From NCBI RefSeq assembly GCF_030384885.1, contig NZ_CP128615.1: a stretch of DNA of 64,000 nucleotides; one strand, given 5' to 3'. Shown here in pieces: positions 3 to 45,597 of this stretch. Position 1 is the first letter of the stretch. Each line of letters starts with the position of its first letter. Both the position numbers and the translations under genes were made by a program. The DNA comes from Escherichia coli (GTDB lineage Bacteria; Pseudomonadota; Gammaproteobacteria; Enterobacterales; Enterobacteriaceae). The notes beneath the pieces were generated by a model. It was not told where the DNA came from. It did no database searches and was given only the letters and a program-made list of their open reading frames with translations.

Positions 3-1565
3 ATGCCTCTGATCACGCGGCTTATGCTGCAAAACTTTAAAAAGTTTCCGGAACTGGACCTGCGCTTCACTCATGACCGTAACATTCTGGTCGGGGATAA
101 TGAGTCCGGGAAAAGCACGATTCTGCTGGCCCTTGACCTTGTGCTGAGCGACAGCCGGCACCGGGTCGAGGCATTGGGTGTGGAATCGCTCCTGTCCCAG
201 TCAGCAGTCAGGCAGTTTCAGGAAGGTGAGCGCCGCGCCGATCGGTTACCCGTGCTGACAGCTGATGTTTTCCTGAGTAATGGGGGAGATCCTGACCTGA
301 ACGGCAGGCAAAATCTGGCGGGTATCGATGCGGATGGTCTCAGAATGCGCATTGCACCCATGACGGAGGAATACGGTCAGGATATACATCATGTCCTGCA
401 GCAGGATCCCGATAATTTTCCCTATGAATACTATTCCGTGCGGTTCAGCACCTTCTCCGGGGGGCATTTTGCCGGCTTCAGACGCTATCTGCGCCATCTG
501 CTGTTAGACAGTGCACGCATCGATAACGAGCACGCCGCACAGGAATATACGCGCACAGTTTACAGCGTCAATGTGCCGGTAGCCGATCGGTACCGGCTTG
601 AAAACAGTTACCGGCAACAGAAAATGCACTTCTGCACCCGGCATCTGTCAGCCATAAACGACACGCTGGATACGTATCAGTTTGGCGTGCGTTCCGGTGC
701 TAAATCAGGTCTTGAGGCGAATCTGGACATTACCGAGGACGGTATTTCCATTCGTCACCGTGGAAAAGGAAGGCAGTGCTTCATCAAAACAGAGTTTGCA
801 CTGCAGCGGCATCAGCAGCAGGGAGAGCTCCACGCACTGTTGCTTGAGGAGCCGGAGAATCATCTCAGCCATGTCAGTATGAAGAGGCTGGTTAATCAGC
901 TTGCAACTGAACGGCAGACGCAGGTGTTTATTGCCACACACAGCAGCCATATCTCATCCCGCCTCGATCTGCGTAAGGCAATCCTCCTCGGGTCTGCCCG
1001 ACCGGTACTGATGAATGAACTTTCCGCTGAGACTGCCGCCTTCTTCATGAAAGCACCGGACAATAATGTGCTGGAATTTGCGCTGGCCAGACGTGTGCTG
1101 CTCGTGGAGGGGGATGCTGAGTTTATTCTGATCGAGGCCTTTTATCGCCGCCTGTATGGCAGGTCGCCGGAGGATGACGGGGTTCACATCATCGCTATCG
1201 GCGGAACGAGTTTCCGTCGTTATCTTGAACTGGCCCGTCTTCTGGAAAATCGCGTCGCGGCCCTTCGTGATAATGACGGCAACTATCAGCAAAACTGCGA
1301 TGAACGCTATGCTGACGTGCTTTGTTCCCGCTCCCGGGTATTTGCTGATCGCGATAACACCCGATCCACATTTGAAATCTGCCTGTATCAGGATAACGCT
1401 GGTCTGTGTGATGCGCTTTTCCGCGGAACACGCCGGACACTCACGGTGCAGGAATACATGCTGGCCAATAAGGCAGAAGCAGCATTCCGGCTGTTACAGC
1501 TGCACGCCGAAGAGCTGACAGTACCTGATTATATTCAGGAGGCACTGGCATGGATAAGAGAGTGA
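3..1565 (+). CDS. OLD-family ABC-type ATPase with C-terminal Toprim-like nuclease domain (GajA-like / class 1 OLD)
   Basis: 520-aa ORF; Walker A GDNESGKST, Walker B LLEEPE, C-terminal VLLVEGDAEF...RDNDGN Toprim-like motifs; stop overlaps start of downstream helicase gene. Confidence 0.75.
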   Translation: MPLITRLMLQNFKKFPELDLRFTHDRNILVGDNESGKSTILLALDLVLSDSRHRVEALGVESLLSQSAVRQFQEGERRADRLPVLTADVFLSNGGDPDLNGRQNLAGIDADGLRMRIAPMTEEYGQDIHHVLQQDPDNFPYEYYSVRFSTFSGGHFAGFRRYLRHLLLDSARIDNEHAAQEYTRTVYSVNVPVADRYRLENSYRQQKMHFCTRHLSAINDTLDTYQFGVRSGAKSGLEANLDITEDGISIRHRGKGRQCFIKTEFALQRHQQQGELHALLLEEPENHLSHVSMKRLVNQLATERQTQVFIATHSSHISSRLDLRKAILLGSARPVLMNELSAETAAFFMKAPDNNVLEFALARRVLLVEGDAEFILIEAFYRRLYGRSPEDDGVHIIAIGGTSFRRYLELARLLENRVAALRDNDGNYQQNCDERYADVLCSRSRVFADRDNTRSTFEICLYQDNAGLCDALFRGTRRTLTVQEYMLANKAEAAFRLLQLHAEELTVPDYIQEALAWIRE

Positions 1566-2572
1566 TATTTGCGGTTGCCGGCTCGGGCAAGACCACGCTG
1601 CTGATACAGCGGTTGAGTGAGGACCGGCGGACGCTGATCCTGACCTTCACCGTGAATAATGAAGCGCATCTCCGGGCGCAGATTATCAGACGTTTTGGCT
1701 TTATCCCGGACGGGATCAGGGTGATGACCTGGTTTGAGTTTCTGCACGGTTTTTGCTTCAGGCCTTTCCTGCAGGAGCAGCTGGCATCGCGTGGGCTGAG
1801 CTTCGACCAGCCCCCACCCAGAATACCGCGCACGAATGCCCGGCATTATCAGGATCCCGCCGGACGGCTGTATCACCGGAGGCTCGCACACTTACTCACA
1901 GCCCGGGGGCTGCTGCCAGATATCCGTACCCGGCTTGCCCGTTACTACGATGAACTGCTTGTCGATGAAGTCCAGGACTTTGCCGGACATGACTTTAATT
2001 TTCTGCTGGAGCTCTGCCGCGCGGAAATCACTGTGCTCTGTTGCGGCGATTTTTATCAACATACCTTTGATACAAGCCATGACGGCAACGTTAATTCAAC
2101 GCTGCACGATGACATTACGCGATATGAGGCCCGCTTCGACGCAGCAGGTTTCACGGTTGACCGGGACACGCTCAACCGGACATGGCGTTGCTCAGCTTCA
2201 GTGTGCGAGTTTATCACCGGACAACTGAACATCCGTATCGCTGCCCATGGGATACATGCCACCCTGATTGAAACGATCACAGATGCAGAGCGCACAGCCA
2301 CCCTGCACGCCGATAATACGGTGATTAAGCTCTTCTATCGTGAACATCACCGTTACGGCTGCTATTCCATGAACTGGGGCGTCAGTAAAGGGCTCGACCA
2401 CTTTCAGGATGTCTGCATTGTGATGGGATCTTCCCACTGGAAGCTTCTGACCCGTCAGGAACTGGCAGCCCTTCCACCGTCGTCCCGTAACAGGCTGTAC
2501 GTGGCATGCTCACGGGCGCGCGGCAACATTTATTTTGTTCCCGAAATTCATCTGCGCCGATTCCGGAACTGA
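1550..2572 (+). CDS. compact UvrD/Rep-like SF1 helicase (GajB-like partner of the OLD nuclease)
   Basis: 340-aa ORF; AGSGKTT Walker A, DEVQDF motif II, YVACSRARG C-terminal motif; 16-bp overlap with upstream gene. Confidence 0.7.
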   Translation: MDKRVIFAVAGSGKTTLLIQRLSEDRRTLILTFTVNNEAHLRAQIIRRFGFIPDGIRVMTWFEFLHGFCFRPFLQEQLASRGLSFDQPPPRIPRTNARHYQDPAGRLYHRRLAHLLTARGLLPDIRTRLARYYDELLVDEVQDFAGHDFNFLLELCRAEITVLCCGDFYQHTFDTSHDGNVNSTLHDDITRYEARFDAAGFTVDRDTLNRTWRCSASVCEFITGQLNIRIAAHGIHATLIETITDAERTATLHADNTVIKLFYREHHRYGCYSMNWGVSKGLDHFQDVCIVMGSSHWKLLTRQELAALPPSSRNRLYVACSRARGNIYFVPEIHLRRFRN

Positions 2573-2699
2573 GTCAGCTGCTTCTCAGTCGGGCACAATT
2601 CAGAAATAAAGCTGTATGGCCAACGATGTCACTTCAGGCTGGAAAAGTGCGGATCCGGTTTTGCCTTTTTTCGGATCTGAGCGGGAAAAGTGAGAAACC

Positions 2700-2861
2700 A
2701 ACATAGGTGTAACATATCCATATGCCGGGCATCTGCATAGGCAAAGCATACGCATATACCTACCATCTGCATATGTAACACCTATACAAGCCGGGCTTGC
2801 AGGCATATACTTCACCTATGCGGGAATACTCCCTGGCACACTCAGCATATGAGGAAAAACC
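2700..2861 (+). promoter_or_regulatory. putative vagCD promoter/operator (inverted repeat ATAGGTGT/ACACCTAT, CATCTGCATA direct repeats)
   Basis: repeat-rich region immediately upstream of vagC; a related repeat-rich region precedes the second vagC copy at 58860-59026. Confidence 0.4.
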
Positions 2862-3092
2862 ATGCGCACAGTTTCGATATTTAAAAACGGCAATAACCGC
2901 GCCATCCGTCTGCCCCGGGACCTGGATTTTGATGGCGTCAGCGAGCTGGAGATCGTCCGGGAAGGGGACAGCATCATTCTGCGTCCCGTCCGGCCGACCT
3001 GGGGCTCGTTCGCGCAGCTGGACAGGGCCGATCCGGACTTTATGGCGGAGCGTGAGGATGTGGTCAGCGATGAAGGACGCTTTGAGCCATGA
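2862..3092 (+). CDS. vagC: VagC/VapB-type antitoxin (AbrB/SpoVT fold)
   Basis: 76-aa ORF MRTVSIFKNGNNRAIRLPRDL...; 4-bp overlap with downstream PIN toxin. Confidence 0.9.
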   Translation: MRTVSIFKNGNNRAIRLPRDLDFDGVSELEIVREGDSIILRPVRPTWGSFAQLDRADPDFMAEREDVVSDEGRFEP

Positions 3093-3505
3093 AGAAAACC
3101 TGGATGCTCGACACCAACATCTGCTCGTTCATCATGCGCGAGCAGCCGGCAGCGGTGCTGAAGCGCCTGGAGCAGGCGGTGCTGCGCGGTGATCGCATTG
3201 TGGTCTCGGCCGTGACGTATGCCGAGATGCGCTTCGGCGCCACCGGCCCGAAGGCCTCGCCGCGCCATATTCAGCTGGTCGACGCGTTCTGCGCGCGCCT
3301 CGATGCCGTCCTGCCCTGGGACCGCGCCGCGGTGGACGCCACGACGGACATCCGGGTGGCGCTGCGCCTAGCCGGGACGCCGATCGGCCCGAATGACACG
3401 GCCATTGCCGGGCACGCCATCGCGGCGGGCGCCATCCTGGTGACGAACAATGTGAGAGAGTTTGCGCGGGTCCCGGGCCTGGTGCTGGAAGACTGGGTGA
3501 AATAA
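3089..3505 (+). CDS. vagD: VagD/VapC PIN-domain toxin
   Basis: 138-aa ORF MKKTWMLDTNICSFIM... with PIN acidic residues; overlaps vagC stop. Confidence 0.9.
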   Translation: MKKTWMLDTNICSFIMREQPAAVLKRLEQAVLRGDRIVVSAVTYAEMRFGATGPKASPRHIQLVDAFCARLDAVLPWDRAAVDATTDIRVALRLAGTPIGPNDTAIAGHAIAAGAILVTNNVREFARVPGLVLEDWVK

Positions 3506-3547
3506 TCCCGTAATAATTTCCGTGACGGAGACGACAGACATGAATGG

Positions 3548-3608
3548 GCTTTGTTGAATAAATCGAACTTTTGCTGAGTTGAAGGATCAGATCACGCATC
3601 CTCCCGAC
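3548..3608 (+). mobile_element. IS903-like (IS5 family) terminal fragment including IR GGCTTTGTTGAATAAATC
   Basis: matches the first ~61 bp of the intact IS903-like copy at 23903; homology stops where the IS3-family element begins. Confidence 0.65.
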
Positions 3609-3708
3609 TGGATTTGCCCCTATATTTCCAGACACCTGTTATCACTTAATGGAGTGACCCCGAGCCCGTAGACAAATCTGCCCTATAGTTTGAGCATAGG
3701 AGGAGTCT

Positions 3709-3993
3709 ATGGGCACATCACGTTTTACCCCTGAATTTAAGGAAGAGGCCGTCCGCCAGATCACCGAGCGGGGCTATTCTATTGCTGAAGTATCTGAACG
3801 GCTCGGCGTGTCGGCGCACAGCCTATATAAATGGCTCCGGGCTGTTAAGCCTGACAACAGTGGACAGCAGGCACAGGATTTACTGGATGCCAGAACAGAA
3901 ATTCTCAGGCTGAAAGCACAGCTTAAACGCACTGAGGAAGAGCGGGATATTCTGAAAAAGGCAGCGCGGTACTTTGCAAGGGAGCCCGACTGA
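3709..3993 (+). CDS. IS3-family transposase OrfA (HTH)
   Basis: 94-aa ORF with HTH (YSIAEVSERLGVSAHSLYKW) and leucine-zipper-like C-terminus. Confidence 0.85.
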   Translation: MGTSRFTPEFKEEAVRQITERGYSIAEVSERLGVSAHSLYKWLRAVKPDNSGQQAQDLLDARTEILRLKAQLKRTEEERDILKKAARYFAREPD

Positions 3994-4567
3994 AGTATCG
4001 CTTTATCAACGATCACCGTGAAATCTGGTCGATCGTTACAATGTGTCGGGTCCTTAAGGTTGCCCGTGCCGGATTTTATGTCTGGCTCCATAACCCTGTA
4101 TCTGCCGGAGAAAAGGATAACCAGCGACTGCTGGAACTCATCCGCGACTCCTATACGCTGAGTGGTGGAGTTTACGGTTATCGCAGGGTTCATGGCGATC
4201 TTCGCGAAATTGGCGAAGTGTGCAGCAGAAACCGGGTTGCCAAAATCATGAGGAAAAACAGGATTCAGGCTATACATGGTTATAAAGTGCCACGCGGGAG
4301 CCGGGGACGACCGTCACTGATAGCGCCTAATCACGTGCGGCGTGAATTTACTGTAGTGAAGCCCAATCAGGTGTGGGTCACCGACATCACCTACATCCGC
4401 ACCTGGCAGGGCTGGCTGTACCTGGCAGTGGTTATCGATCTTTTTGCCCGTAATGTGGTGGGCTGGTCGATGAAGCCGACACTGTCGCGCGAGCTGGCAC
4501 TGGATGCGCTGCTGATGGCGGTCTGGCGACGTAAACCTGAAGAAAACGTCATTGTGCACAGCGATAG

Positions 4568-5941
4568 TAATAATGCCGATGTCAGTCTTTACCACCACTT
4601 AGTTTGCCGTTTAACCAGATTGGTGTGATTACTGATGCAGTGAAGACCTTCCCGCATCCTGACTCACACAGCGATCGACCTTTTGTGTCCTGCCCTGGAC
4701 CCGTCGGTTGCCGGAAGCGCCTTCATGCGAGGCATCTCCTCACCGATGCGCGTGACTCAAGAAGGGCCTGACGGCTTGTCTCGTTACTGTCCTGTCCGGG
4801 TTATCTGTCTGGAGATTCAACTCTGTTTCCTCACAGGAGCTCTGTCATGGTTGATAAAGTTACCGAAGCTGCCGTTGTGGGTGGCGTGGATACACATAAA
4901 GATTTGCACGTTGCCGCTGTCGTAGATCAGAACAATAAAGTCCTTGGGACTCAGTATTTCTCCACAACACGACAAGGTTACCGGCAGATGCTGGCATGGA
5001 TGACCTCGTTTGGGACATTAAAGCGAATTGGTGTTGAGTGCACAGGTACCTATGGTTCCGGTTTGCTTCGTTATTTTCAGAACGCCGGGTTAGAAGTTCT
5101 TGAGGTGACTGCTCCAGACCGGATGGAGCGACGCAAACGGGGTAAAAGTGACACAATTGATGCTGAATGTGCCGCTCATGCAGCATTCTCAGGCATCAGG
5201 ACAGTTACTCCCAAAACGCGTGATGGCATGATTGAGTCCCTGCGGGTATTAAAAACTTGCCGAAAAACAGCAATATCAGCCCGCAGAGTCGCTCTCCAGA
5301 TTATCCATTCAAATATTATCTCTGCCCCGGATGAATTACGTGAACAGCTCAGAAATATGACGCGCATGCAGCTCATCAGGACCCTGGGTTCCTGGAGACC
5401 TGATGCCAGTGAATACCGCAATGTAACCAACGTTTATCGCATTTCATTAAAGTCCCTTGCCCGACGCTATCTCGAGTTACATGACGAAATCGCTGATCTG
5501 GATGTCATGATTGCGGCAATTGTCGACGAGTTGGCACCTGAGCTGATTAAACGTAATGCTATCGGATACGAAAGCGCTTCACAGTTGCTGATCACTGCCG
5601 GAGACAATCCTCAACGGTTAAGATCAGAATCAGGATTTGCGGCACTGTGTGGTGTCAGCCCGGTCCCCGTTTCTTCTGGAAAAACGAACCGTTACCGACT
5701 TAATCGTGGTGGAGATCGTGCTGCAAATAGTGCACTTCACATCATCGCCATCGGACGCTTACGAACTGACGCAAAAACAAAGGAATATGTCGCCAGGCGT
5801 GTAGCCGAAGGACATACAAAAATGGAAGCGATACGCTGTCTAAAGCGATATATCTCCCGCGAAGTTTACACGTTACTGCGCAATCAAAACAGGCGGATCA
5901 ACAGTATCCCGATAACAGCTTGACTCTTAGAAGGGCGTCCA
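4568..5941 (+). mobile_element. IS110-family insertion sequence (about 1374 bp, no obvious terminal IRs)
   Basis: precisely interrupts the IS3 orfB codon run HSD|RGSQY (2-bp junction ambiguity); carries a DEDD-type transposase gene. Confidence 0.75.
4847..5923 (+). CDS. IS110-family (DEDD) transposase
   Basis: 358-aa ORF; N-terminal GVDTHKDLHVAAV, C-terminal ...NRGGDRAANSALHIIAIGRLR... typical of IS110 family. Confidence 0.85.
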   Translation: MVDKVTEAAVVGGVDTHKDLHVAAVVDQNNKVLGTQYFSTTRQGYRQMLAWMTSFGTLKRIGVECTGTYGSGLLRYFQNAGLEVLEVTAPDRMERRKRGKSDTIDAECAAHAAFSGIRTVTPKTRDGMIESLRVLKTCRKTAISARRVALQIIHSNIISAPDELREQLRNMTRMQLIRTLGSWRPDASEYRNVTNVYRISLKSLARRYLELHDEIADLDVMIAAIVDELAPELIKRNAIGYESASQLLITAGDNPQRLRSESGFAALCGVSPVPVSSGKTNRYRLNRGGDRAANSALHIIAIGRLRTDAKTKEYVARRVAEGHTKMEAIRCLKRYISREVYTLLRNQNRRINSIPITA

Positions 5942-6325
5942 GGGCAGTCAGTATGGCAGTGATGACTGGCAGCGGTTCTGCCGGGCCAATAATCTGGTAC
6001 CGAGCATGAGCCGTCGCGGCAACTGCTGGGATAATGCAGTGGCAGAATCGTTCTTCAGTTCACTCAAAAAAGAGCGCATCAGGAAGCGGATATACAAAAC
6101 CCGGGACATGGCCCGGGCGGATATTTTCGATTATATTGAAGTGTTCTACAACCGGGCCCGGCGCCACAGTCATCTCGGCGGCGTCAGCCCGGAGGCCTTC
6201 GAAAAGGCCTCGCAGTGAGGACAGAAACTGTCTACCGGAGCGTGGTCACTCCACATTTAAAGAAACGAGCTTTGGTAAACATACCTGTAATGACTCCATA
6301 AAATGGCGCGTCAAACGACACCTAA

Positions 6326-8401
6326 TCAATTAACCCCAAGCGCCTTAAACACGGCATCGACGGGGTCTGCATAAAAGCTGATCTGGAATTTTGAGAACAA
6401 CTCAGCAGGAACCGTTGGAATATCTGAGGCTGAGGCCATTGGGAGCAAAATACGCTTTGCGCCACTGTCCATAGCTAACTGAAGACTGCCTGCAAGATCT
6501 TGAACAGGATTGACGACACCACCTAAAGTCATCTCACCCAAAACAACCATCTGCTCTTGAATCGGTCGGTTCATCAGAATTGAACAGAACGCAATTAATG
6601 CAGCGAGCGATGACTTTGTACTTGGCCCCGTATTGTGGAGCTCAACAACATGGAGGTGATACTCATGATCAGAAAACTTCGCCGACGCACTGATTCTATT
6701 CAGGTTACCTTTGAAATAATCAAAGCCAACACGCACAGCTTCTTTCGCTGCGGTATTCGAACCAAGGCCAGACACTGAGTGTTTACCAGAACCAGCCATC
6801 ATCTGGGTTTCATAGCGATATAACCCAAGCTGCCCAGTGCTTCCCTGAGTAACCAAGTGCACGACACCAGCGCGAGGTAAGCCCTCAGGAATTAGCTTGC
6901 TGCCACCTTGTTCCGGTACATTGATGAAGAATTCTTCTAATGAATCGTTATCGATGTAGCTAAAGTGCACATCAAAAAATTCCATTCCGCCAAGCTTTTT
7001 CAATTGCTCTTTGACTCTACGTCTAGTTTCCAGCGCATAGGTCAGGCAGGCTCTTACATCATCTTTTGTGTACTGTGCGTCGGGGTGTAGTAGCTTTAAC
7101 AAGCCCGAAACAGTTCTGCGTACAGCAATTACATCACGCTGATTAAGGTTATTACCGAGTTTGAAGAACTTATCGATAGCATCCGCAAAACTTCTTTTGC
7201 GCATTTCACGCATGTATTCAGCAAGATAGTCTGTGATTAATCCGTAACTATTGGTGAAAAACTCAGGACGCATCTTCGGTATTTCCCATCCAGGAATATA
7301 GGAATGGAAACGGTCAAAAAAAGCAGTGTCAATCATGGCTTCAGGAAAAGGTGCCAACAGATGACTGGTCTTCACCAGTGTCTCAACGCTTTGATTGATG
7401 TTACCGACGAATACCATGGAAGCCTTCGCTTCGATTGAATCACGACCACGGGCAAAAGACCCTGACGCCATATAATCTTTCATTATTTGGACGCCGTCTT
7501 TGTCTTTAAAGTTAATACCCGCTACTTCATCAAAGGCGACAACATCCCACATTCCGACCAACCCAACTTGGCGCGAGCTCATGTTATAGAACAAGTTCGC
7601 CACAGTTGTTTGTCCGCCCGAGACAAGCAATGAGTTTGGTGAGCACTCCTTGTAGACATGGCTTTTACCTGTCCCTCTTGGTCCGAGCTCACAAACGTTG
7701 TAGTTGTTTTCAACGAATGGGATCATACGAGTGATAAGATGCCATTTCACCCGATGCTCTAAGTTGGTTGGCTCCATACCCACGGAACGAAGCAACACAT
7801 CCATCCACTGATCGGTACTAAAATGTCTTCTGGTTGAAAACACCTCATCCATGTTCATGGACGGCATTTGTATCGGTTTTAAACTCATAATGGAGAAAGG
7901 TGATGTCTTCTGACCTTCCTCAAAGAAATACTGGACGGTAATAATGCACCAGATGCCGCCAGTTAATAATTTTTCGTTGTCTTGTACTATTTTGGTCGGT
8001 ACAAGGGCATCCTTGATACCCAGGTTCGACAACGCAGCTTCATAGACGTCTTTTTTCTGGTTGAGCTTAACGCTTACTTTGTCGATGATTTTAAACGTGC
8101 CGCGTTCACGGATCAGTGACTTCACTTTCTCCGCTTCATCTGGTCGGACATAGTTCTCAGCCAAGATTTTTTTTACATTATCAAGGCCTTGCATTACAAC
8201 TTCGTCGTCATCGGACGCACAATACATGCCTAGTAAATACTCAAGCACATAGACAGGGACGTTAGCGCCTTCTTTCAATTGCTTTGTCAGATCTTTTCGA
8301 ACGACACGGCCTTTAAAATATTGGTTGAGCAATGCGTCTAAATCGGCGCTTTGCATCTGATTTTTTTCGTCTTTATGATCTTGTGAAAAATCAGTTGTCA
8401 T
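6326..8401 (-). CDS. brxL: BREX BrxL (Lon-like protease domain protein)
   Basis: 691-aa ORF, last gene of the BREX operon; P-loop GPRGTGKSH and Lon-like C-terminus. Confidence 0.85.
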   Translation of the reverse strand: MTTDFSQDHKDEKNQMQSADLDALLNQYFKGRVVRKDLTKQLKEGANVPVYVLEYLLGMYCASDDDEVVMQGLDNVKKILAENYVRPDEAEKVKSLIRERGTFKIIDKVSVKLNQKKDVYEAALSNLGIKDALVPTKIVQDNEKLLTGGIWCIITVQYFFEEGQKTSPFSIMSLKPIQMPSMNMDEVFSTRRHFSTDQWMDVLLRSVGMEPTNLEHRVKWHLITRMIPFVENNYNVCELGPRGTGKSHVYKECSPNSLLVSGGQTTVANLFYNMSSRQVGLVGMWDVVAFDEVAGINFKDKDGVQIMKDYMASGSFARGRDSIEAKASMVFVGNINQSVETLVKTSHLLAPFPEAMIDTAFFDRFHSYIPGWEIPKMRPEFFTNSYGLITDYLAEYMREMRKRSFADAIDKFFKLGNNLNQRDVIAVRRTVSGLLKLLHPDAQYTKDDVRACLTYALETRRRVKEQLKKLGGMEFFDVHFSYIDNDSLEEFFINVPEQGGSKLIPEGLPRAGVVHLVTQGSTGQLGLYRYETQMMAGSGKHSVSGLGSNTAAKEAVRVGFDYFKGNLNRISASAKFSDHEYHLHVVELHNTGPSTKSSLAALIAFCSILMNRPIQEQMVVLGEMTLGGVVNPVQDLAGSLQLAMDSGAKRILLPMASASDIPTVPAELFSKFQISFYADPVDAVFKALGVN

Positions 8402-23902: not shown

Positions 23903-24959
23903 GGCTTTGTTGAATAAATCGAACTTTTGCTGAGTTGAAGGATCAGATCACGCATCCTCCCGACAACACAGACCATTCCGTGGCAAAGCAAAAGTTCAGA
24001 ATCACCAACTGGTCCACCTACAACAAAGCTCTCATCAACCGTGGCTCCCTCACTTTCTGGCTGGATGATGGGGCGATTCAGGCCTGGTATGAGTCGGCAA
24101 CGCCTTCATCACGGGGAAGGCCCCAGCGCTATTCTGACCTTGCCATCACGACTGTGCTGGTCATTAAACGCGTATTCAGGCTGACCCTGCGCGCTGCGCA
24201 GGGCTTTATTGATTCCATTTTTACACTGATGAATGTTCCGTTGCGCTGCCCGGATTACAGCTGTGTCAGCAGGCGGGCAAAGTCGGTTAACGTCAGTTTC
24301 AAAACGTTCACCCGGGGTGAAATCGCGCATCTGGTGATTGATTCCACCGGGCTGAAGGTCTTTGGTGAAGGCGAGTGGAAAGTCAAAAAGCATGGCCAGG
24401 AACGCCGTCGTATATGGCGAAAGTTGCATCTGGCAGTTGACAGCAACACACATGAAATCATCTGTGCAGACCTGTCGCTGAACAATGTGACGGACTCAGA
24501 AGCCTTCCCGGGTCTTATCCGGCAGACTCACAGAAAAATCAGGGCAGCATCGGCAGACGGCGCTTACGACACCCGGCTCTGTCACGATGAACTGCGGCGT
24601 AAGAAAATCAGCGCGCTTATCCCTCCCCGAAAAGGTGCGGGTTACTGGCCCGGTGAATATGCAGACCGTAACCGTGCAGTGGCTAATCAGCGAATGACCG
24701 GGAGTAATGCGCGGTGGAAATGGACAACAGATTACAACCGTCGCTCGATAGCGGAAACGGCGATGTACCGGGTAAAACAGCTGTTCGGGGGTTCACTGAC
24801 GCTGCGTGACTACGATGGTCAGGTTGCGGAGGCTATGGCCCTGGTACGAGCGCTGAACAAAATGACGAAAGCAGGTATGCCTGAAAGCGTGCGTATTGCC
24901 TGAAAACACAACCCGCTACGGGGGAGACTTACCCGAAATCTGATTTATTCAACAAAGCC
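23903..24959 (+). mobile_element. IS903-like (IS5 family) copy 1, 1057 bp, intact
   Basis: 18-bp IRs GGCTTTGTTGAATAAATC at both ends; no 9-bp target duplication. Confidence 0.9.
23935..24903 (+). CDS. IS903-like DDE transposase
   Basis: 322-aa ORF ...[28 protein letters not shown]... Confidence 0.9.
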
Positions 24960-25112
24960 AGATGGAATAGCCCCGCTCGGTGATTTGGCGGACAGCTTCT
25001 TCCTTAAATTCAGGGGTAAAACGTGGTGTGCCCATAGACTATGACCTGCTCCCCGTTGATTAGTACACCCCGATGTTAGTAATGTCTTCATAAGCCACAT
25101 GAGGACATCCCC

Positions 25113-44540: not shown

Positions 44541-45597
44541 GGCTTTGTTGAATAAATCAGATTTCGGGTAAGTCTCCCCCGTAGCGGGTTGTGTTTTCAG
44601 GCAATACGCACGCTTTCAGGCATACCTGCTTTCGTCATTTTGTTCAGCGCTCGTACCAGGGCCATAGCCTCTGCAACCTGACCATCGTAGTCACGCAGTG
44701 TCAGTGAACCTCCGAACAGCTGTTTTACCCGGTACATCGCCGTTTCCGCTATCGAGCGACGGTTGTAATCTGTTGTCCATTTCCACCGCGCATTACTCCC
44801 GGTCAGCCGCTGATTCGCAACAGCACGGTTACGGTCTGCATATTCACCGGGCCAGTAACCCGCGCCTTTTCGGGGCGGGATAAGCGCGCTGATTTTCTTA
44901 CGCCGCAGTTCATCGTGACAGAGTTGGGTGTCGTAAGCGCCGTCTGCCGATGCTGCCCTGATTTTTCTGTGAGTCTGCCGGATAAGACCCGGGAAGGCTT
45001 CTGAGTCCGTCACATTGTTCAGCGACAGGTTTGCACAGATGATTTCATGTGTGTTGCTGTCAACTGCCAGATGCAACTTTCGCCATATACGACGGCGTTC
45101 CTGGCCATGCTTTTTGACTTTCCATTCGCCTTCACCAAAGACCTTCAGCCCGGTGGAATCAATCACCAGATGCGCGATTTCACCCCGGGTGAACGTTTTG
45201 AAACTGACATTAACCGACTTTGCGCGCTTGCTGACACTGGTGTAATCCGGGCAGCGCAACGGAACATTCATCAGTGTAAAAATGGAATCAATAAAACCCT
45301 GTGCAGCCCGCAGGGTCAACCTGAACACGCGTTTAATGACCAGAACGGTGGTGATGGCGAGATCAGAATAGCGCTGAGGTCTTCCCCGTGATGAAGGCGT
45401 TGCCGACTCATACCAGGCCTGAATAGCTTCATCATCCAGCCAGAAAGTTATGGAGCCACGGTTGATGAGGGCTTTATTGTAGGTGGGCCAGTTGGTTATT
45501 TTGAACTTTTGCTTTGCCACGGAATGGTCTGCGTTGTCGGGAAGATGCGTGATCTGATCCTTCAACTCAGCAAAAGTTCGATTTATTCAACAAAGCC
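44541..45597 (-). mobile_element. IS903-like copy 3, 1057 bp, intact
   Basis: 18-bp IRs at both ends; same orientation as copy 2. Confidence 0.9.
44597..45565 (-). CDS. IS903-like DDE transposase
   Basis: 322-aa ORF nearly identical to copy 1. Confidence 0.9.
   Translation of the reverse strand: MKDQITHLPDNADHSVAKQKFKITNWPTYNKALINRGSITFWLDDEAIQAWYESATPSSRGRPQRYSDLAITTVLVIKRVFRLTLRAAQGFIDSIFTLMNVPLRCPDYTSVSKRAKSVNVSFKTFTRGEIAHLVIDSTGLKVFGEGEWKVKKHGQERRRIWRKLHLAVDSNTHEIICANLSLNNVTDSEAFPGLIRQTHRKIRAASADGAYDTQLCHDELRRKKISALIPPRKGAGYWPGEYADRNRAVANQRLTGSNARWKWTTDYNRRSIAETAMYRVKQLFGGSLTLRDYDGQVAEAMALVRALNKMTKAGMPESVRIA

What the first reader, a model, noticed from the sequence alone, without database searches (positions are those of the whole stretch)
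3548..6320. Nested insertion: IS110-family element inside IS3-family orfB, inside an IS903 end
The IS3-family orfB reading frame is continuous across a 1374-bp IS110-family element (HSD | RGSQY), so the IS110-family element inserted cleanly into a previously intact IS3 copy. The IS3 copy itself begins 61 bp into an IS903 end, whose remainder is absent. This gives a relative chronology of three transposition events next to the BREX 3' end.
Basis: seen in the sequence. Interest (0 to 1): 0.3.

Follow-up and report, generated by a model that had tools for sequence, protein, structure and literature searches.

The report
ISEc21-type element inside ISEc15 transposase gene
A small RNA-guided mobile element (an ISEc21 variant) has inserted precisely into the transposase gene of another mobile element (ISEc15) on an IncR-type plasmid backbone; both this targeting habit and this arrangement are already published, so the finding is real but ordinary.

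Summary
The core observation holds. Removing window 4566-5939 (1374 bp) leaves a 1230-bp element that is 100% identical, in one piece, to intact ISEc15 (IS3 family) in six plasmids. Three plasmids (pIS04_68, p1658/97, pM206-NDM1) carry the same vapC...brxL locus with ISEc15 uninterrupted, so a true empty site exists.

The inserted element is an ISEc21 variant of the IS110 family: same length and ends, 92.6% nucleotide and 97% transposase identity, and an invariant guide region. Its upstream non-coding RNA region carries CACAGCGAT and CTGCCCTG, which match the two target halves exactly. Siddiquee et al. [quoted passage not shown] ISEc21 next to truncated ISEc15 on an IncR hybrid plasmid is also published.

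- The junction is HSD|QGSQY, not HSD|RGSQY.
- The IS903 end is 3547-3608 (62 bp).
- A 41-bp IS2 right end (3609-3649) lies between IS903 and ISEc15 and was missed.
- ISEc15 has no target duplication here (TAA versus CAT), so a deletion or recombination also occurred.
- The ISEc21-type insertion was the last event.

Already known; low interest.

The parts
3547..3608 (+). IS903-type (IS5 family) left, transposase-proximal end fragment: the 18-bp inverted repeat GGCTTTGTTGAATAAATC plus 44 bp. The rest of the element is absent here.
   Evidence: 100% identical to the first 62 bp of the complete 1057-bp IS903-type copy at window 23903-24959, whose transposase ORF is on the + strand.
3609..3649 (-). 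41-bp fragment of the right end (IRR) of an IS2-type element. The IS2 body would have extended to the right, with its transposase on the minus strand.
   Evidence: 41-bp matches at 97.6-100% in 4458 of 5426 E. coli genomes, under IS2-family transposase annotations; the match sits at the 3' end of an annotated IS2 transposase (L007); sequence comparison with IS2.
3650..4565 (+). ISEc15 (IS3 family), left 916 bp. Contains IRL 3650-3674, orfA 3709-3993, a slippery site GAAAAAG at 3954-3960, and orfB (-1 frame) up to codons ...V-H-S-D (GAT ends at 4565).
   Evidence: HTH_Tnp_1, HTH_21, rve; 100% identity to ISEc15.
4566..5939 (+). ISEc21-type IS110-family element, 1374 bp, with no terminal inverted repeats and no target duplication, in the same orientation as ISEc15 orfB.
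   Evidence: Boundaries fixed by the empty site. 92.6% nucleotide identity, same length and ends as the ISEc21 reference LT903847. Transposase 348/358 identical.
4566..4846 (+). Left-end non-coding region (281 bp) encoding the seekRNA/bridge RNA. AATAAT at 4569-4574 is the -10 half of the promoter that forms when the ends are joined.
   Evidence: region 60-280 is nearly invariant between this element and ISEc21; published deletion and complementation experiments on the ISEc21 non-coding region. Junction sequence printed.
4636..4730 (+). Predicted long hairpin whose open apical region holds both target-matching segments (the target-binding loop).
   Evidence: MFE -32.2 kcal/mol, z = -2.5, 2 of 200 shuffles fold as well.
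4667..4675 (+). Guide segment CACAGCGAT, identical to the 9 bp immediately left of the insertion point (pairs with the bottom strand).
   Evidence: 9/9 match, reached by 3 of 2000 shuffles. Invariant in ISEc21.
4690..4697 (+). Guide segment CTGCCCTG, the reverse complement of the 8 bp immediately right of the insertion point (CAGGGCAG, pairs with the top strand). With its neighbours it complements 11 nt of the RE/right-flank junction, GTC|CAGGGCAG.
   Evidence: 8/8 match, reached by 71 of 2000 shuffles. It lies 3' of the bottom-strand match, as published for ISEc21.
4760..4767 (+). Candidate donor-recognition segment AGAAGGGC, identical to right-end positions -11 to -4 (tentative). The partner for the left end is unclear; the candidate is CGTTACTG at 4782-4789.
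   Evidence: 8-mer match, reached by 30 of 2000 shuffles. The local fold is not significant (z = -0.7).
4847..5923 (+). IS110-family DEDD transposase/recombinase gene, 358 aa (WP_000227969.1), intact.
   Evidence: DEDD_Tnp_IS110 plus Transposase_20. NF033542 'IS110 family RNA-guided transposase', 195 bits against a cutoff of 140; annotation.
5920..5925 (+). TTGACT, the -35 half of the promoter formed across the joined right and left ends (TTGACT-N17-AATAAT). It overlaps the tnp stop codon.
   Evidence: Read directly from the sequence printed. A junction promoter is published for ISEc21 and for IS110 elements generally.
5940..6253 (+). ISEc15, right 314 bp: orfB resumes at codons Q-G-S-Q-Y, stop codon at 6216-6218, IRR 6229-6253.
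   Evidence: (rve, rve_2, rve_3).
6254..6325 (.). 72 bp between the ISEc15 right end and the brxL stop codon. It contains no IS2 or IS903 remainder and does not repeat the left flank.
   Evidence: brxL is at 6326-8401 on the minus strand.

Best explanation
Window 4566-5939 is a complete, apparently functional variant of ISEc21, an IS110-family insertion sequence. Its recombinase is directed by an RNA (seekRNA/bridge RNA) encoded in its own upstream non-coding region. Two short segments of that RNA, CACAGCGAU and CUGCCCUG, match the two halves of the sequence CACAGCGAT|CAGGGCAG. That sequence encodes His-Ser-Asp|Gln-Gly-Ser around the second catalytic Asp of IS3-family transposases.

The likely course of events is as follows. 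The element excised as a circle, which creates a TTGACT-N17-AATAAT promoter across its joined ends. It then integrated in one orientation between GAT and CAG of the orfB of an intact ISEc15 copy, with no duplication or loss of target bases. This split and inactivated the ISEc15 transposase gene.

That ISEc15 copy already lay between vapBC and the 3' end of a BREX-1 operon on an IncR-type backbone. It had earlier inserted 41 bp inside the right end of an IS2 element, which itself abuts 62 bp of an IS903 left end. The right side of that ISEc15 copy had then been rearranged, by deletion or by recombination between ISEc15 copies, so that it joins the brxL downstream region.

Shown here: boundaries, identities, the empty site, guide-target matches, and repeated use of the same site in different IS3 hosts. 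Taken from published experiments on ISEc21: the RNA requirement, the circle, and insertion without duplication. Inferred: activity of this particular copy and the exact route of the earlier rearrangements.
For: - Exact excision restores ISEc15 at 100% over 1230 bp.
- Empty-site alleles exist in the same vapC...brxL context, with 1-2 mismatches in 1830 bp.
- The element is 1374 bp with the same ends as the ISEc21 reference, at 92.6% nucleotide identity and 97% amino-acid identity. The guide region is invariant.
- The guide segments match the flanks 9/9 and 8/8, directly abutting the junction. They exceed nearly all shuffles and sit in the open top of a significant hairpin.
- In 12 loci the element or ISEc21 sits in at least 5 different IS3-family sequences (ISEc15, a diverged ISEc15/ISEc24-like copy, IS911-like and others). 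It is always at the HSD|QG codon boundary and in the same orientation. The one exception is the left flank in L006.
[quoted passage not shown] Its non-coding region is required in cis or in trans, the circle has a junction promoter, and there is no duplication (PMC11187229).
- ISEc21 next to truncated ISEc15 is described on an IncR hybrid plasmid (PMC7096625).
- Protein domains are as expected.
Against: - No experiment was done on this copy. RNA expression, circle formation and activity are inferred.
- Rfam 15 has no matching RNA family.
- There is almost no sequence variation in the guide region, so there is no covariation support.
- The donor-recognition part of the RNA is only tentatively located. 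The left-end match is no better than chance and the second hairpin is not significant.
- Donor and target share no base at the crossover point, unlike the CT core of IS621, so the IS621 strand-exchange details may not transfer.
- The composite ISEc15::ISEc21-type unit occurs in other genomic contexts. It could have reached this locus by homologous recombination rather than by de novo insertion.
Confidence: 0.92

Rival explanations
1. The interrupted ISEc15 was not made by insertion at this locus. A pre-formed ISEc15::ISEc21-type composite elsewhere in the cell replaced the intact resident ISEc15 by homologous recombination or gene conversion through the ISEc15 arms. Alternatively, the composite transposed as a unit using ISEc15 transposase supplied in trans.
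For: - The same composite is found with different flanks in Pluralibacter gergoviae (L015) and K. michiganensis (L020). An ISEc21-type element sits at the same site of a diverged ISEc15-like copy in the E. coli R14 chromosome (L002).
- The ISEc15 arms of 916 and 314 bp are ample for recombination.
- ISEc15 at this locus has no target duplication, which shows that recombination has acted here before.
Against: - Direct, site-specific, duplication-free insertion into exactly this sequence is experimentally shown for ISEc21 and needs only one step.
- The arms here are identical to those of the empty-site plasmids, whereas the other composites differ by 0.5-1.6%.
- The final structure and the biology of the element are the same under either route.
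Confidence: 0.12
2. One reading: three simple nested transpositions, with the IS3-family element inserted directly into an IS903 end 61 bp from its tip.
For: The IS903 inverted repeat and the IS3-family element are close together, and the IS110-in-IS3 nesting is real.
Against: - 41 bp of IS2 right end separate IS903 from ISEc15.
- ISEc15 has no target duplication, and its right flank is brxL-downstream DNA rather than IS903 or IS2.
- A related plasmid keeps the rest of an IS2-like element to the right of ISEc15 at almost the same position.
Confidence: 0.02
3. An assembly artefact or chance juxtaposition of repeat fragments.
For: IS-rich regions are prone to misassembly.
Against: The identical 2773-bp structure is present at 99.9-100% in many independently sequenced complete plasmids from Escherichia, Klebsiella and Raoultella. 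In the plasmid collection, 251 records cover at least 80% of it.
Confidence: 0.01

Closest known systems
ISEc21 (IS110 family, IS110 group), as characterised by Siddiquee et al. 2024, Nat Commun 15:5235 (PMC11187229)
   Same: - Length of 1374 bp, identical terminal sequences (AGTAATAATGCC... and ...CTTAGAAGGGCGTC), and a 358-aa transposase that is 97% identical.
- Upstream non-coding region with invariant target-matching segments.
[quoted passage not shown]
- TTGACT and AATAAT halves of a junction promoter.
   Different: - 92.6% nucleotide identity overall, with differences concentrated in the first ~55 bp of the left end and in tnp.
- NCBI's pipeline names this protein only 'IS110 family transposase'.
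- The host here is ISEc15, whose site (CACAGCGAT|CAGGGCAG) matches the guides perfectly. The reference ISEc21 copies sit in sites with 2-3 mismatches (CATAGCGAC|CAGGGAAG).
- ISEc15 is not among the example hosts named in the paper's main text.
IS621 and its bridge RNA (Durrant et al. 2024, Nature 630:984, PMC11208160; Hiraizumi et al. 2024)
   Same: - Same family and the same general logic.
- A left-end-encoded non-coding RNA whose loop pairs with the bottom strand of the left target half and the top strand of the right target half.
- A promoter reconstituted on the circular form.
- A DEDD plus Tnp-domain recombinase.
   Different: - IS621 targets REP-like sequences and uses a CT core shared by donor and target. 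Here donor (GTC|AGT) and target (GAT|CAG) share no base at the crossover.
- The transposase is longer (358 aa, against the 315-330 aa given for the IS621 branch).
- The donor-binding loop could not be confidently delineated.
[quoted passage not shown]
   Same: A DEDD-transposase IS that targets a conserved sequence inside another mobile element and thereby disables it.
   Different: - They belong to a different subgroup, with the guide RNA in the right end and subterminal inverted repeats.
- Their target is a transposon inverted repeat, not a transposase coding sequence.
ISEc21-ΔISEc15 module of IncR-type plasmids (for example pCRE3-KPC, PMC7096625)
   Same: Same backbone neighbourhood and the same ISEc15/ISEc21 association.
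   Different: In the truncated variants seen here (L009, L010) the right part of ISEc15 is missing and the sequence breaks exactly at the ISEc21-type right end (as the pCRE3-KPC paper also reports a truncated ISEc15). The window keeps both ISEc15 parts and the adjacent BREX operon.

Membership tests
IS110 family (IS110 group) RNA-guided insertion sequence | Transposase with an N-terminal DEDD (RuvC-like) domain and a C-terminal Transposase_20 domain | tested here: met
   PF01548 at 3.4e-20 and PF02371 at 1.9e-12. NF033542, 195.2 bits against a cutoff of 140.
IS110 family (IS110 group) RNA-guided insertion sequence | No terminal inverted repeats and no target-site duplication | tested here: met
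   Comparison with the empty site shows 1374 bp inserted between GAT and CAG, with no base duplicated or lost. The ends AGTAAT... and ...GGCGTC are not inverted repeats.
IS110 family (IS110 group) RNA-guided insertion sequence | Long non-coding left end upstream of tnp containing segments that match both strands of the target | tested here: met
   The left end is 281 bp. CACAGCGAT (4667-4675) and CTGCCCTG (4690-4697) match the flanks 9/9 and 8/8 and lie in the open top of a hairpin.
IS110 family (IS110 group) RNA-guided insertion sequence | The RNA is expressed, binds the transposase and is required for movement | not testable with these tools
   Shown experimentally for ISEc21 itself, not for this copy.
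IS110 family (IS110 group) RNA-guided insertion sequence | Joining of the right and left ends reconstitutes a sigma-70 promoter | tested here: met
   At sequence level only: TTGACT (5920-5925), a 17-nt spacer, then AATAAT (4569-4574) across the junction (sequence printed). Promoter activity was not tested.
IS110 family (IS110 group) RNA-guided insertion sequence | Donor and target share a core dinucleotide at the crossover (the IS621 paradigm) | tested here: not met
   The target is GAT|CAG and the donor junction is GTC|AGT, with no shared base. This agrees with the published finding of no duplication for ISEc21. It is a feature of IS621 rather than of the family as a whole.
ISEc21 (named IS) | Close identity to the reference element. 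The ISfinder isoform convention of roughly >90% nucleotide or >95% amino-acid identity is recalled from memory. | tested here: met
   92.6% over 1374/1374 bp against LT903847.1 and 348/358 aa. No access to ISfinder to confirm the official name.
ISEc21 (named IS) | [quoted passage not shown] | tested here: met
   The window and 11 other loci show the right junction at the same Q-G codons, and all but L006 also the left HSD junction, in the same orientation. Published target.
IS3 family / ISEc15 | orfA (HTH) and orfB (DDE rve domain) joined by a -1 frameshift, giving a full-length transposase | tested here: met
   After in-silico excision, the 378-aa OrfAB covers NF033516 positions 1-369 of 369 at 424.6 bits. 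Pfam finds HTH_Tnp_1, HTH_21 and rve.
IS3 family / ISEc15 | Imperfect terminal inverted repeats ending 5'-TG...CA-3' | tested here: met
   TGGAGTGACC... at 3650 and ...GGTCACTCCA ending at 6253. 21 of 25 positions match.
IS3 family / ISEc15 | Identity to copies annotated as ISEc15 | tested here: met
   100% over 1230 bp to six plasmid copies annotated 'IS3-like element ISEc15 family transposase'.
IS3 family / ISEc15 | Short (3-4 bp) target-site duplication flanking the element | tested here: not met
   The flanks here are TAA and CAT. Another copy has GTG/GTG (L022) and another TAAC/TAAC (L023). The absence here points to a later rearrangement, not to non-membership.
IS2 (right-end fragment) | Sequence identity to the IS2 terminal inverted repeat region | tested here: met
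   41/41 or 40/41 identity to thousands of IS2 ends. The position at the 3' end of the IS2 transposase gene is confirmed in L007.
IS903 (left-end fragment) | The 18-bp IS903 inverted repeat plus adjacent sequence | tested here: met
   62/62 identity to the left end of the complete 1057-bp copy at window 23903-24959, whose 322-aa transposase ORF lies on the + strand.

The most novel reading that the evidence does not exclude
ISEc21-type elements may act at population level as RNA-guided hyperparasites that silence IS3-family elements on resistance plasmids. In the plasmid collection, more records hold the interrupted ISEc15 structure (251 with at least 80% of it) than an uninterrupted ISEc15-like copy (167).

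A related possibility concerns the recurrent plasmid variants that break exactly at the ISEc21-type right end and continue into a Tn3-family tnpA remnant upstream of aac(3)-IIe (L009, L010). These may reflect recombinase-mediated rearrangements at off-target sites, which would make the element a shaper of resistance regions rather than a passive passenger.

Neither idea is excluded by my evidence and neither was tested. The counts are confounded by clonal oversampling of IncR/KPC plasmids.
Probability: 0.2. Interest if true: 0.45.

Novelty: already known. Interest (0 to 1): 0.15.

Why it matters
It matters little beyond correct annotation. The locus is a clean natural example, with a matching empty site, of an RNA-guided IS110-family element disabling an IS3-family transposase at its catalytic-motif codons. 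That behaviour was already demonstrated for ISEc21 in 2024.

Practical value:
- The three pseudogene fragments that annotation pipelines report here are one ISEc15 split by one ISEc21-type element.
- The 103 bp to the left are IS903 plus IS2 scars.
- The order of events can help in typing IncR-type backbones that carry this BREX operon.

Tried and rejected
- **Rfam scan.** A scan of 3400-6400 at E <= 1 found no RNA family. The bridge/seekRNA could therefore only be located by complementarity, folding and the literature.
- **Whole left-end fold.** Folding the full 281-nt left end was not better than shuffles (z = -0.55). Only the 95-nt target-loop hairpin is significant.
- **Donor-binding loop.** I looked for a loop matching the left end. 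The best match (ATTACT) is no better than chance, so the donor loop is left as tentative.
- **Shared core or duplication.** I tested every shift of the boundaries (and reasoning from the empty site). None exists, so the IS621 CT-core picture was not applied.
- **Ancestral IS903::IS2 junction.** I searched the plasmid collection for an ancestor with an intact IS2. There were no single-piece hits. The two-piece hits were not examined further and appear to be unrelated neighbouring IS903 and IS2 copies.
- **Native brxL downstream sequence.** I tried to find it without ISEc15 by looking up contigs that encode the identical BrxL. Five of the six places shown carry the IS110-family gene next to brxL and the sixth locus shows no called gene downstream, so none was informative.
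- **Reprogrammed guide.** I considered whether the window element is a reprogrammed relative of ISEc21 with a changed guide. This was rejected because the guide region is invariant.
Full report
**What is in the sequence**

Reading 3000-7200 and listing ORFs shows the following, from left to right:
- a vapB/vapC pair ending at 3505;
- an IS903-type inverted repeat starting at 3547;
- an IS3-family orfA (3709-3993), and an orfB that stops making sense after ...VIVHSD at 4565;
- a 358-aa ORF (4847-5923) with IS110-family domains;
- the remainder of an IS3-family orfB (from 5940, stop codon at 6216-6218);
- on the minus strand, brxL (6326-8401).

Pfam confirms HTH_Tnp_1, HTH_21 and rve on the IS3 pieces, and DEDD_Tnp_IS110 plus Transposase_20 on the middle ORF.

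**Checking the observation**

Trying all nearby boundaries showed that only removals of 1374 or 1371 bp keep orfB open. Removing exactly 4566-5939 (1374 bp) yields a 1230-bp element. That element is 100% identical, in a single alignment over its full length, to copies annotated as ISEc15 in six plasmids. Its closest other named relative in E. coli is ISEc24, at 88.9%.

With the -1 frameshift at GAAAAAG (3954-3960), the reconstructed OrfAB is 378 aa. It covers the NCBIfam IS3 transposase model from position 1 to 369 of 369, at 424.6 bits against a cutoff of 160.

The restored codons are GAT|CAG, that is HSD|QGSQY, not HSD|RGSQY.

**A true empty site**

Three plasmids carry the same neighbourhood with ISEc15 uninterrupted: pIS04_68 (NC_024960, IncR), pM206-NDM1 and p1658/97 (NC_004998). 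The neighbourhood is vapC, IS903 end, IS2 end, ISEc15, and brxL (pM206-NDM1 matches the same sequence, although brxL is not listed in its incomplete gene table).

The window with 4566-5939 removed differs from these plasmids at only 1-2 positions in 1830 bp. Two conclusions follow:
- the insertion removed and added nothing else;
- it happened after the rest of the locus had its present form.

**What the inserted element is**

It has the same length (1374 bp) and the same terminal sequences as the ISEc21 copy in LT903847.1 that Siddiquee et al. used. Nucleotide identity is 92.6% and the transposase is 348/358 identical.

An alignment of the left-end non-coding regions shows that the differences cluster in the first ~55 bp. 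Positions ~60-280 are almost invariant.

**The guide RNA**

Within the invariant part of the left end:
- CACAGCGAT (4667-4675) is identical to the nine bases immediately left of the insertion point;
- CTGCCCTG (4690-4697) is the reverse complement of the eight bases immediately right of it.

In shuffles of the non-coding region, matches this long were reached 3 times in 2000 for the first segment and 71 times in 2000 for the second. The opposite-sense controls gave only chance-level 4-5-mers.

Both segments sit in the open apical part of a 95-nt hairpin (4636-4730) that folds better than 198 of 200 shuffles.

Joining the right end to the left end gives TTGACT-N17-AATAAT (sequence printed).

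A donor-recognition segment is plausible (AGAAGGGC, 4760-4767, equal to the right end). Its partner could not be established.

**Target preference**

I collected 12 loci, from E. coli complete genomes and from one scan of representative genomes. In these, this element or ISEc21 sits in:
- ISEc15;
- a diverged ISEc15/ISEc24-like copy;
- IS911-like elements;
- at least two other IS3-family sequences.

In every case the right junction falls at the same Q-G codons and the element has the same orientation. Every left junction except one falls after H-S-D. Site variants include CATAGCGAC|CAGGGAAG, CATAGCGAT|CAGGGCAGC and CATAGTGAT|CAAGGATG. The ISEc15 site in the window is a perfect match to both guide segments. 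The exception is L006, where the left flank is not IS3 sequence and instead resembles an IS110-type right end.

**What is already known**

Siddiquee et al. 2024 (PMC11187229) report the following for ISEc21:
- its upstream non-coding region is required in cis or in trans for circle formation and for transposition;
- a 74-nt (minimally 58-nt) seekRNA co-purifies with the transposase and contains matches to both target strands, with the top-strand match lying 3' of the bottom-strand match. That order is what I see here;
- the circle creates a promoter;
- insertion makes no duplication.

Durrant et al. 2024 (PMC11208160) describe the general bridge-RNA architecture for the family. A 2020 plasmid paper (PMC7096625) already annotates ISEc21 next to truncated ISEc15 on an IncR hybrid plasmid.

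The identical 2773-bp structure occurs at 99.9-100% in many complete plasmids from Escherichia, Klebsiella and Raoultella.

**Corrections to the left side and the chronology**

The IS903-type fragment is 3547-3608 (62 bp). It equals the transposase-proximal end of the complete IS903-type copy at window 23903-24959.

The next 41 bp (3609-3649) are not IS903 and not ISEc15. They match the right end of IS2 in 4458 of 5426 E. coli genomes, at the 3' end of the IS2 transposase gene.

ISEc15 (3650-6253, TG...CA ends, 21/25 inverted repeats) therefore inserted 41 bp inside an IS2 right end, and that IS2 abuts the IS903 fragment.

ISEc15 has no target duplication here (TAA on the left, CAT on the right). 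Other copies have GTG/GTG or TAAC/TAAC. Its right flank is 72 bp of sequence running into brxL, not IS2.

A Klebsiella plasmid (NZ_CP031801) keeps the rest of an IS2-like element to the right of an ISEc15 copy inserted one base away from the window's position. This shows what the unrearranged state looks like.

**Minimum history**

1. An IS903 element lay next to vapC.
2. An IS2 right end came to abut the IS903 fragment, 62 bp from its tip (presumably by IS2 insertion into IS903).
3. ISEc15 inserted into the IS2 end.
4. A deletion, or recombination between ISEc15 copies, joined the ISEc15 right end to the brxL downstream region.
5. The ISEc21-type element inserted into ISEc15 orfB.

Step 5 is shown to be last. 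The order of the earlier steps is inferred from the nesting.

**Mechanism and confidence**

I am about 92% confident that this is an ISEc21-type, RNA-guided, site-specific insertion that inactivated ISEc15.

The main residual alternative is that the composite arrived by homologous recombination from another ISEc15::ISEc21 copy (about 12%). It cannot be excluded because the same composite exists in other contexts. It would not change what the element is.

One difference from the IS621 paradigm is worth noting. Donor (GTC|AGT) and target (GAT|CAG) share no base at the crossover. This is consistent with the published absence of a duplication, and perhaps with the single-strand transfer models now being discussed.

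**Verdict**

The finding is real and well resolved, but it is already known biology and an already described plasmid feature. Interest is low.

Noticed in passing
L008 (NZ_CP024430.1) 1603-1687; also L015 6786-6832; many Klebsiella plasmid hits (2 pieces, 2813-bp span): Many Klebsiella IncR/IncF plasmids carry a 40-bp tandem duplication of the ISEc15 left end (TGGAGTGACC...CTATAGT twice) in the otherwise identical nested structure. The window and the empty-site plasmids lack it. Some intact ISEc15 copies also appear 40 bp longer (H104, H132).
   Followed up: partly
L009 (NZ_CP010174.1) 4892/4893 and L010 (NZ_CP070587.1) 4892/4893; hits H12-H22: In a group of plasmids the structure breaks exactly at the ISEc21-type right end (...GAAGGGCGTC|AGTTGCTGCC...). 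It continues into what looks like an inverted Tn3-family tnpA remnant upstream of aac(3)-IIe, and the right part of ISEc15 is missing. A breakpoint exactly at the IS110-type end suggests that the element itself took part in the rearrangement.
   Followed up: partly
L006 (NZ_CP081783.1) 1470-4405: An identical copy of the element has a non-IS3 left flank (...CTGCTAAGAAGGGCTCAC|AGTAAT...) that resembles an IS110-type right end. Its right flank is the normal ISEc15 sequence, followed closely by a second, different IS110-family transposase gene and then an IS3 remnant. This may be tandem or nested IS110-family insertions.
   Followed up: no
L008 4308-4324 versus window 6254-6331: In p48896_1 the sequence right of ISEc15 is shared with the window for only 78 bp. 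It then continues with GGGGGAACCGCAGAATTCGG... (which looks like a Tn1721/Tn1722 inverted repeat, from memory) and a methyl-accepting chemotaxis gene instead of brxL. The BREX operon is therefore absent at this position in that lineage.
   Followed up: partly
window 23903-24959, 44541-45597, 35752, 43518: The window holds two complete 1057-bp IS903-type copies (one in each orientation) and two further isolated IS903 ends. The left end of the copy at 23903 is 100% identical to the 62-bp fragment at 3547-3608, including a C variant that the other copies lack.
   Followed up: partly
window 24965-25040 (minus strand): A 76-bp fragment that is 94.7% identical to ISEc15 positions 55-130 lies directly beside the right end of the IS903-type copy at 23903-24959. 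It is probably a second, related IS3-family element truncated by IS903.
   Followed up: no
L025 (NZ_CP031801.1) 2650-4403: ISEc15 is inserted in an IS2-like right end at almost the same position as in the window (one base further in, TAAC duplicated) but in an unrelated flank. This is either a preferred ISEc15 target near the IS2 inverted repeat, which resembles ISEc15's own repeat, or a composite that moved.
   Followed up: partly
window 6307: There is a single C/A difference between the window and all three empty-site plasmids in the 72-bp spacer downstream of brxL. It is the only mismatch in 1830 bp for two of them.
   Followed up: no
window 1550-2572: A 340-aa ORF with a Walker A-like N-terminus (AVAGSGKTT) lies upstream of vapBC. 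The E. coli PCN061 plasmid with the identical nested structure has ccdAB and an integrase there instead, so the backbone to the left of vapBC differs between carriers.
   Followed up: no
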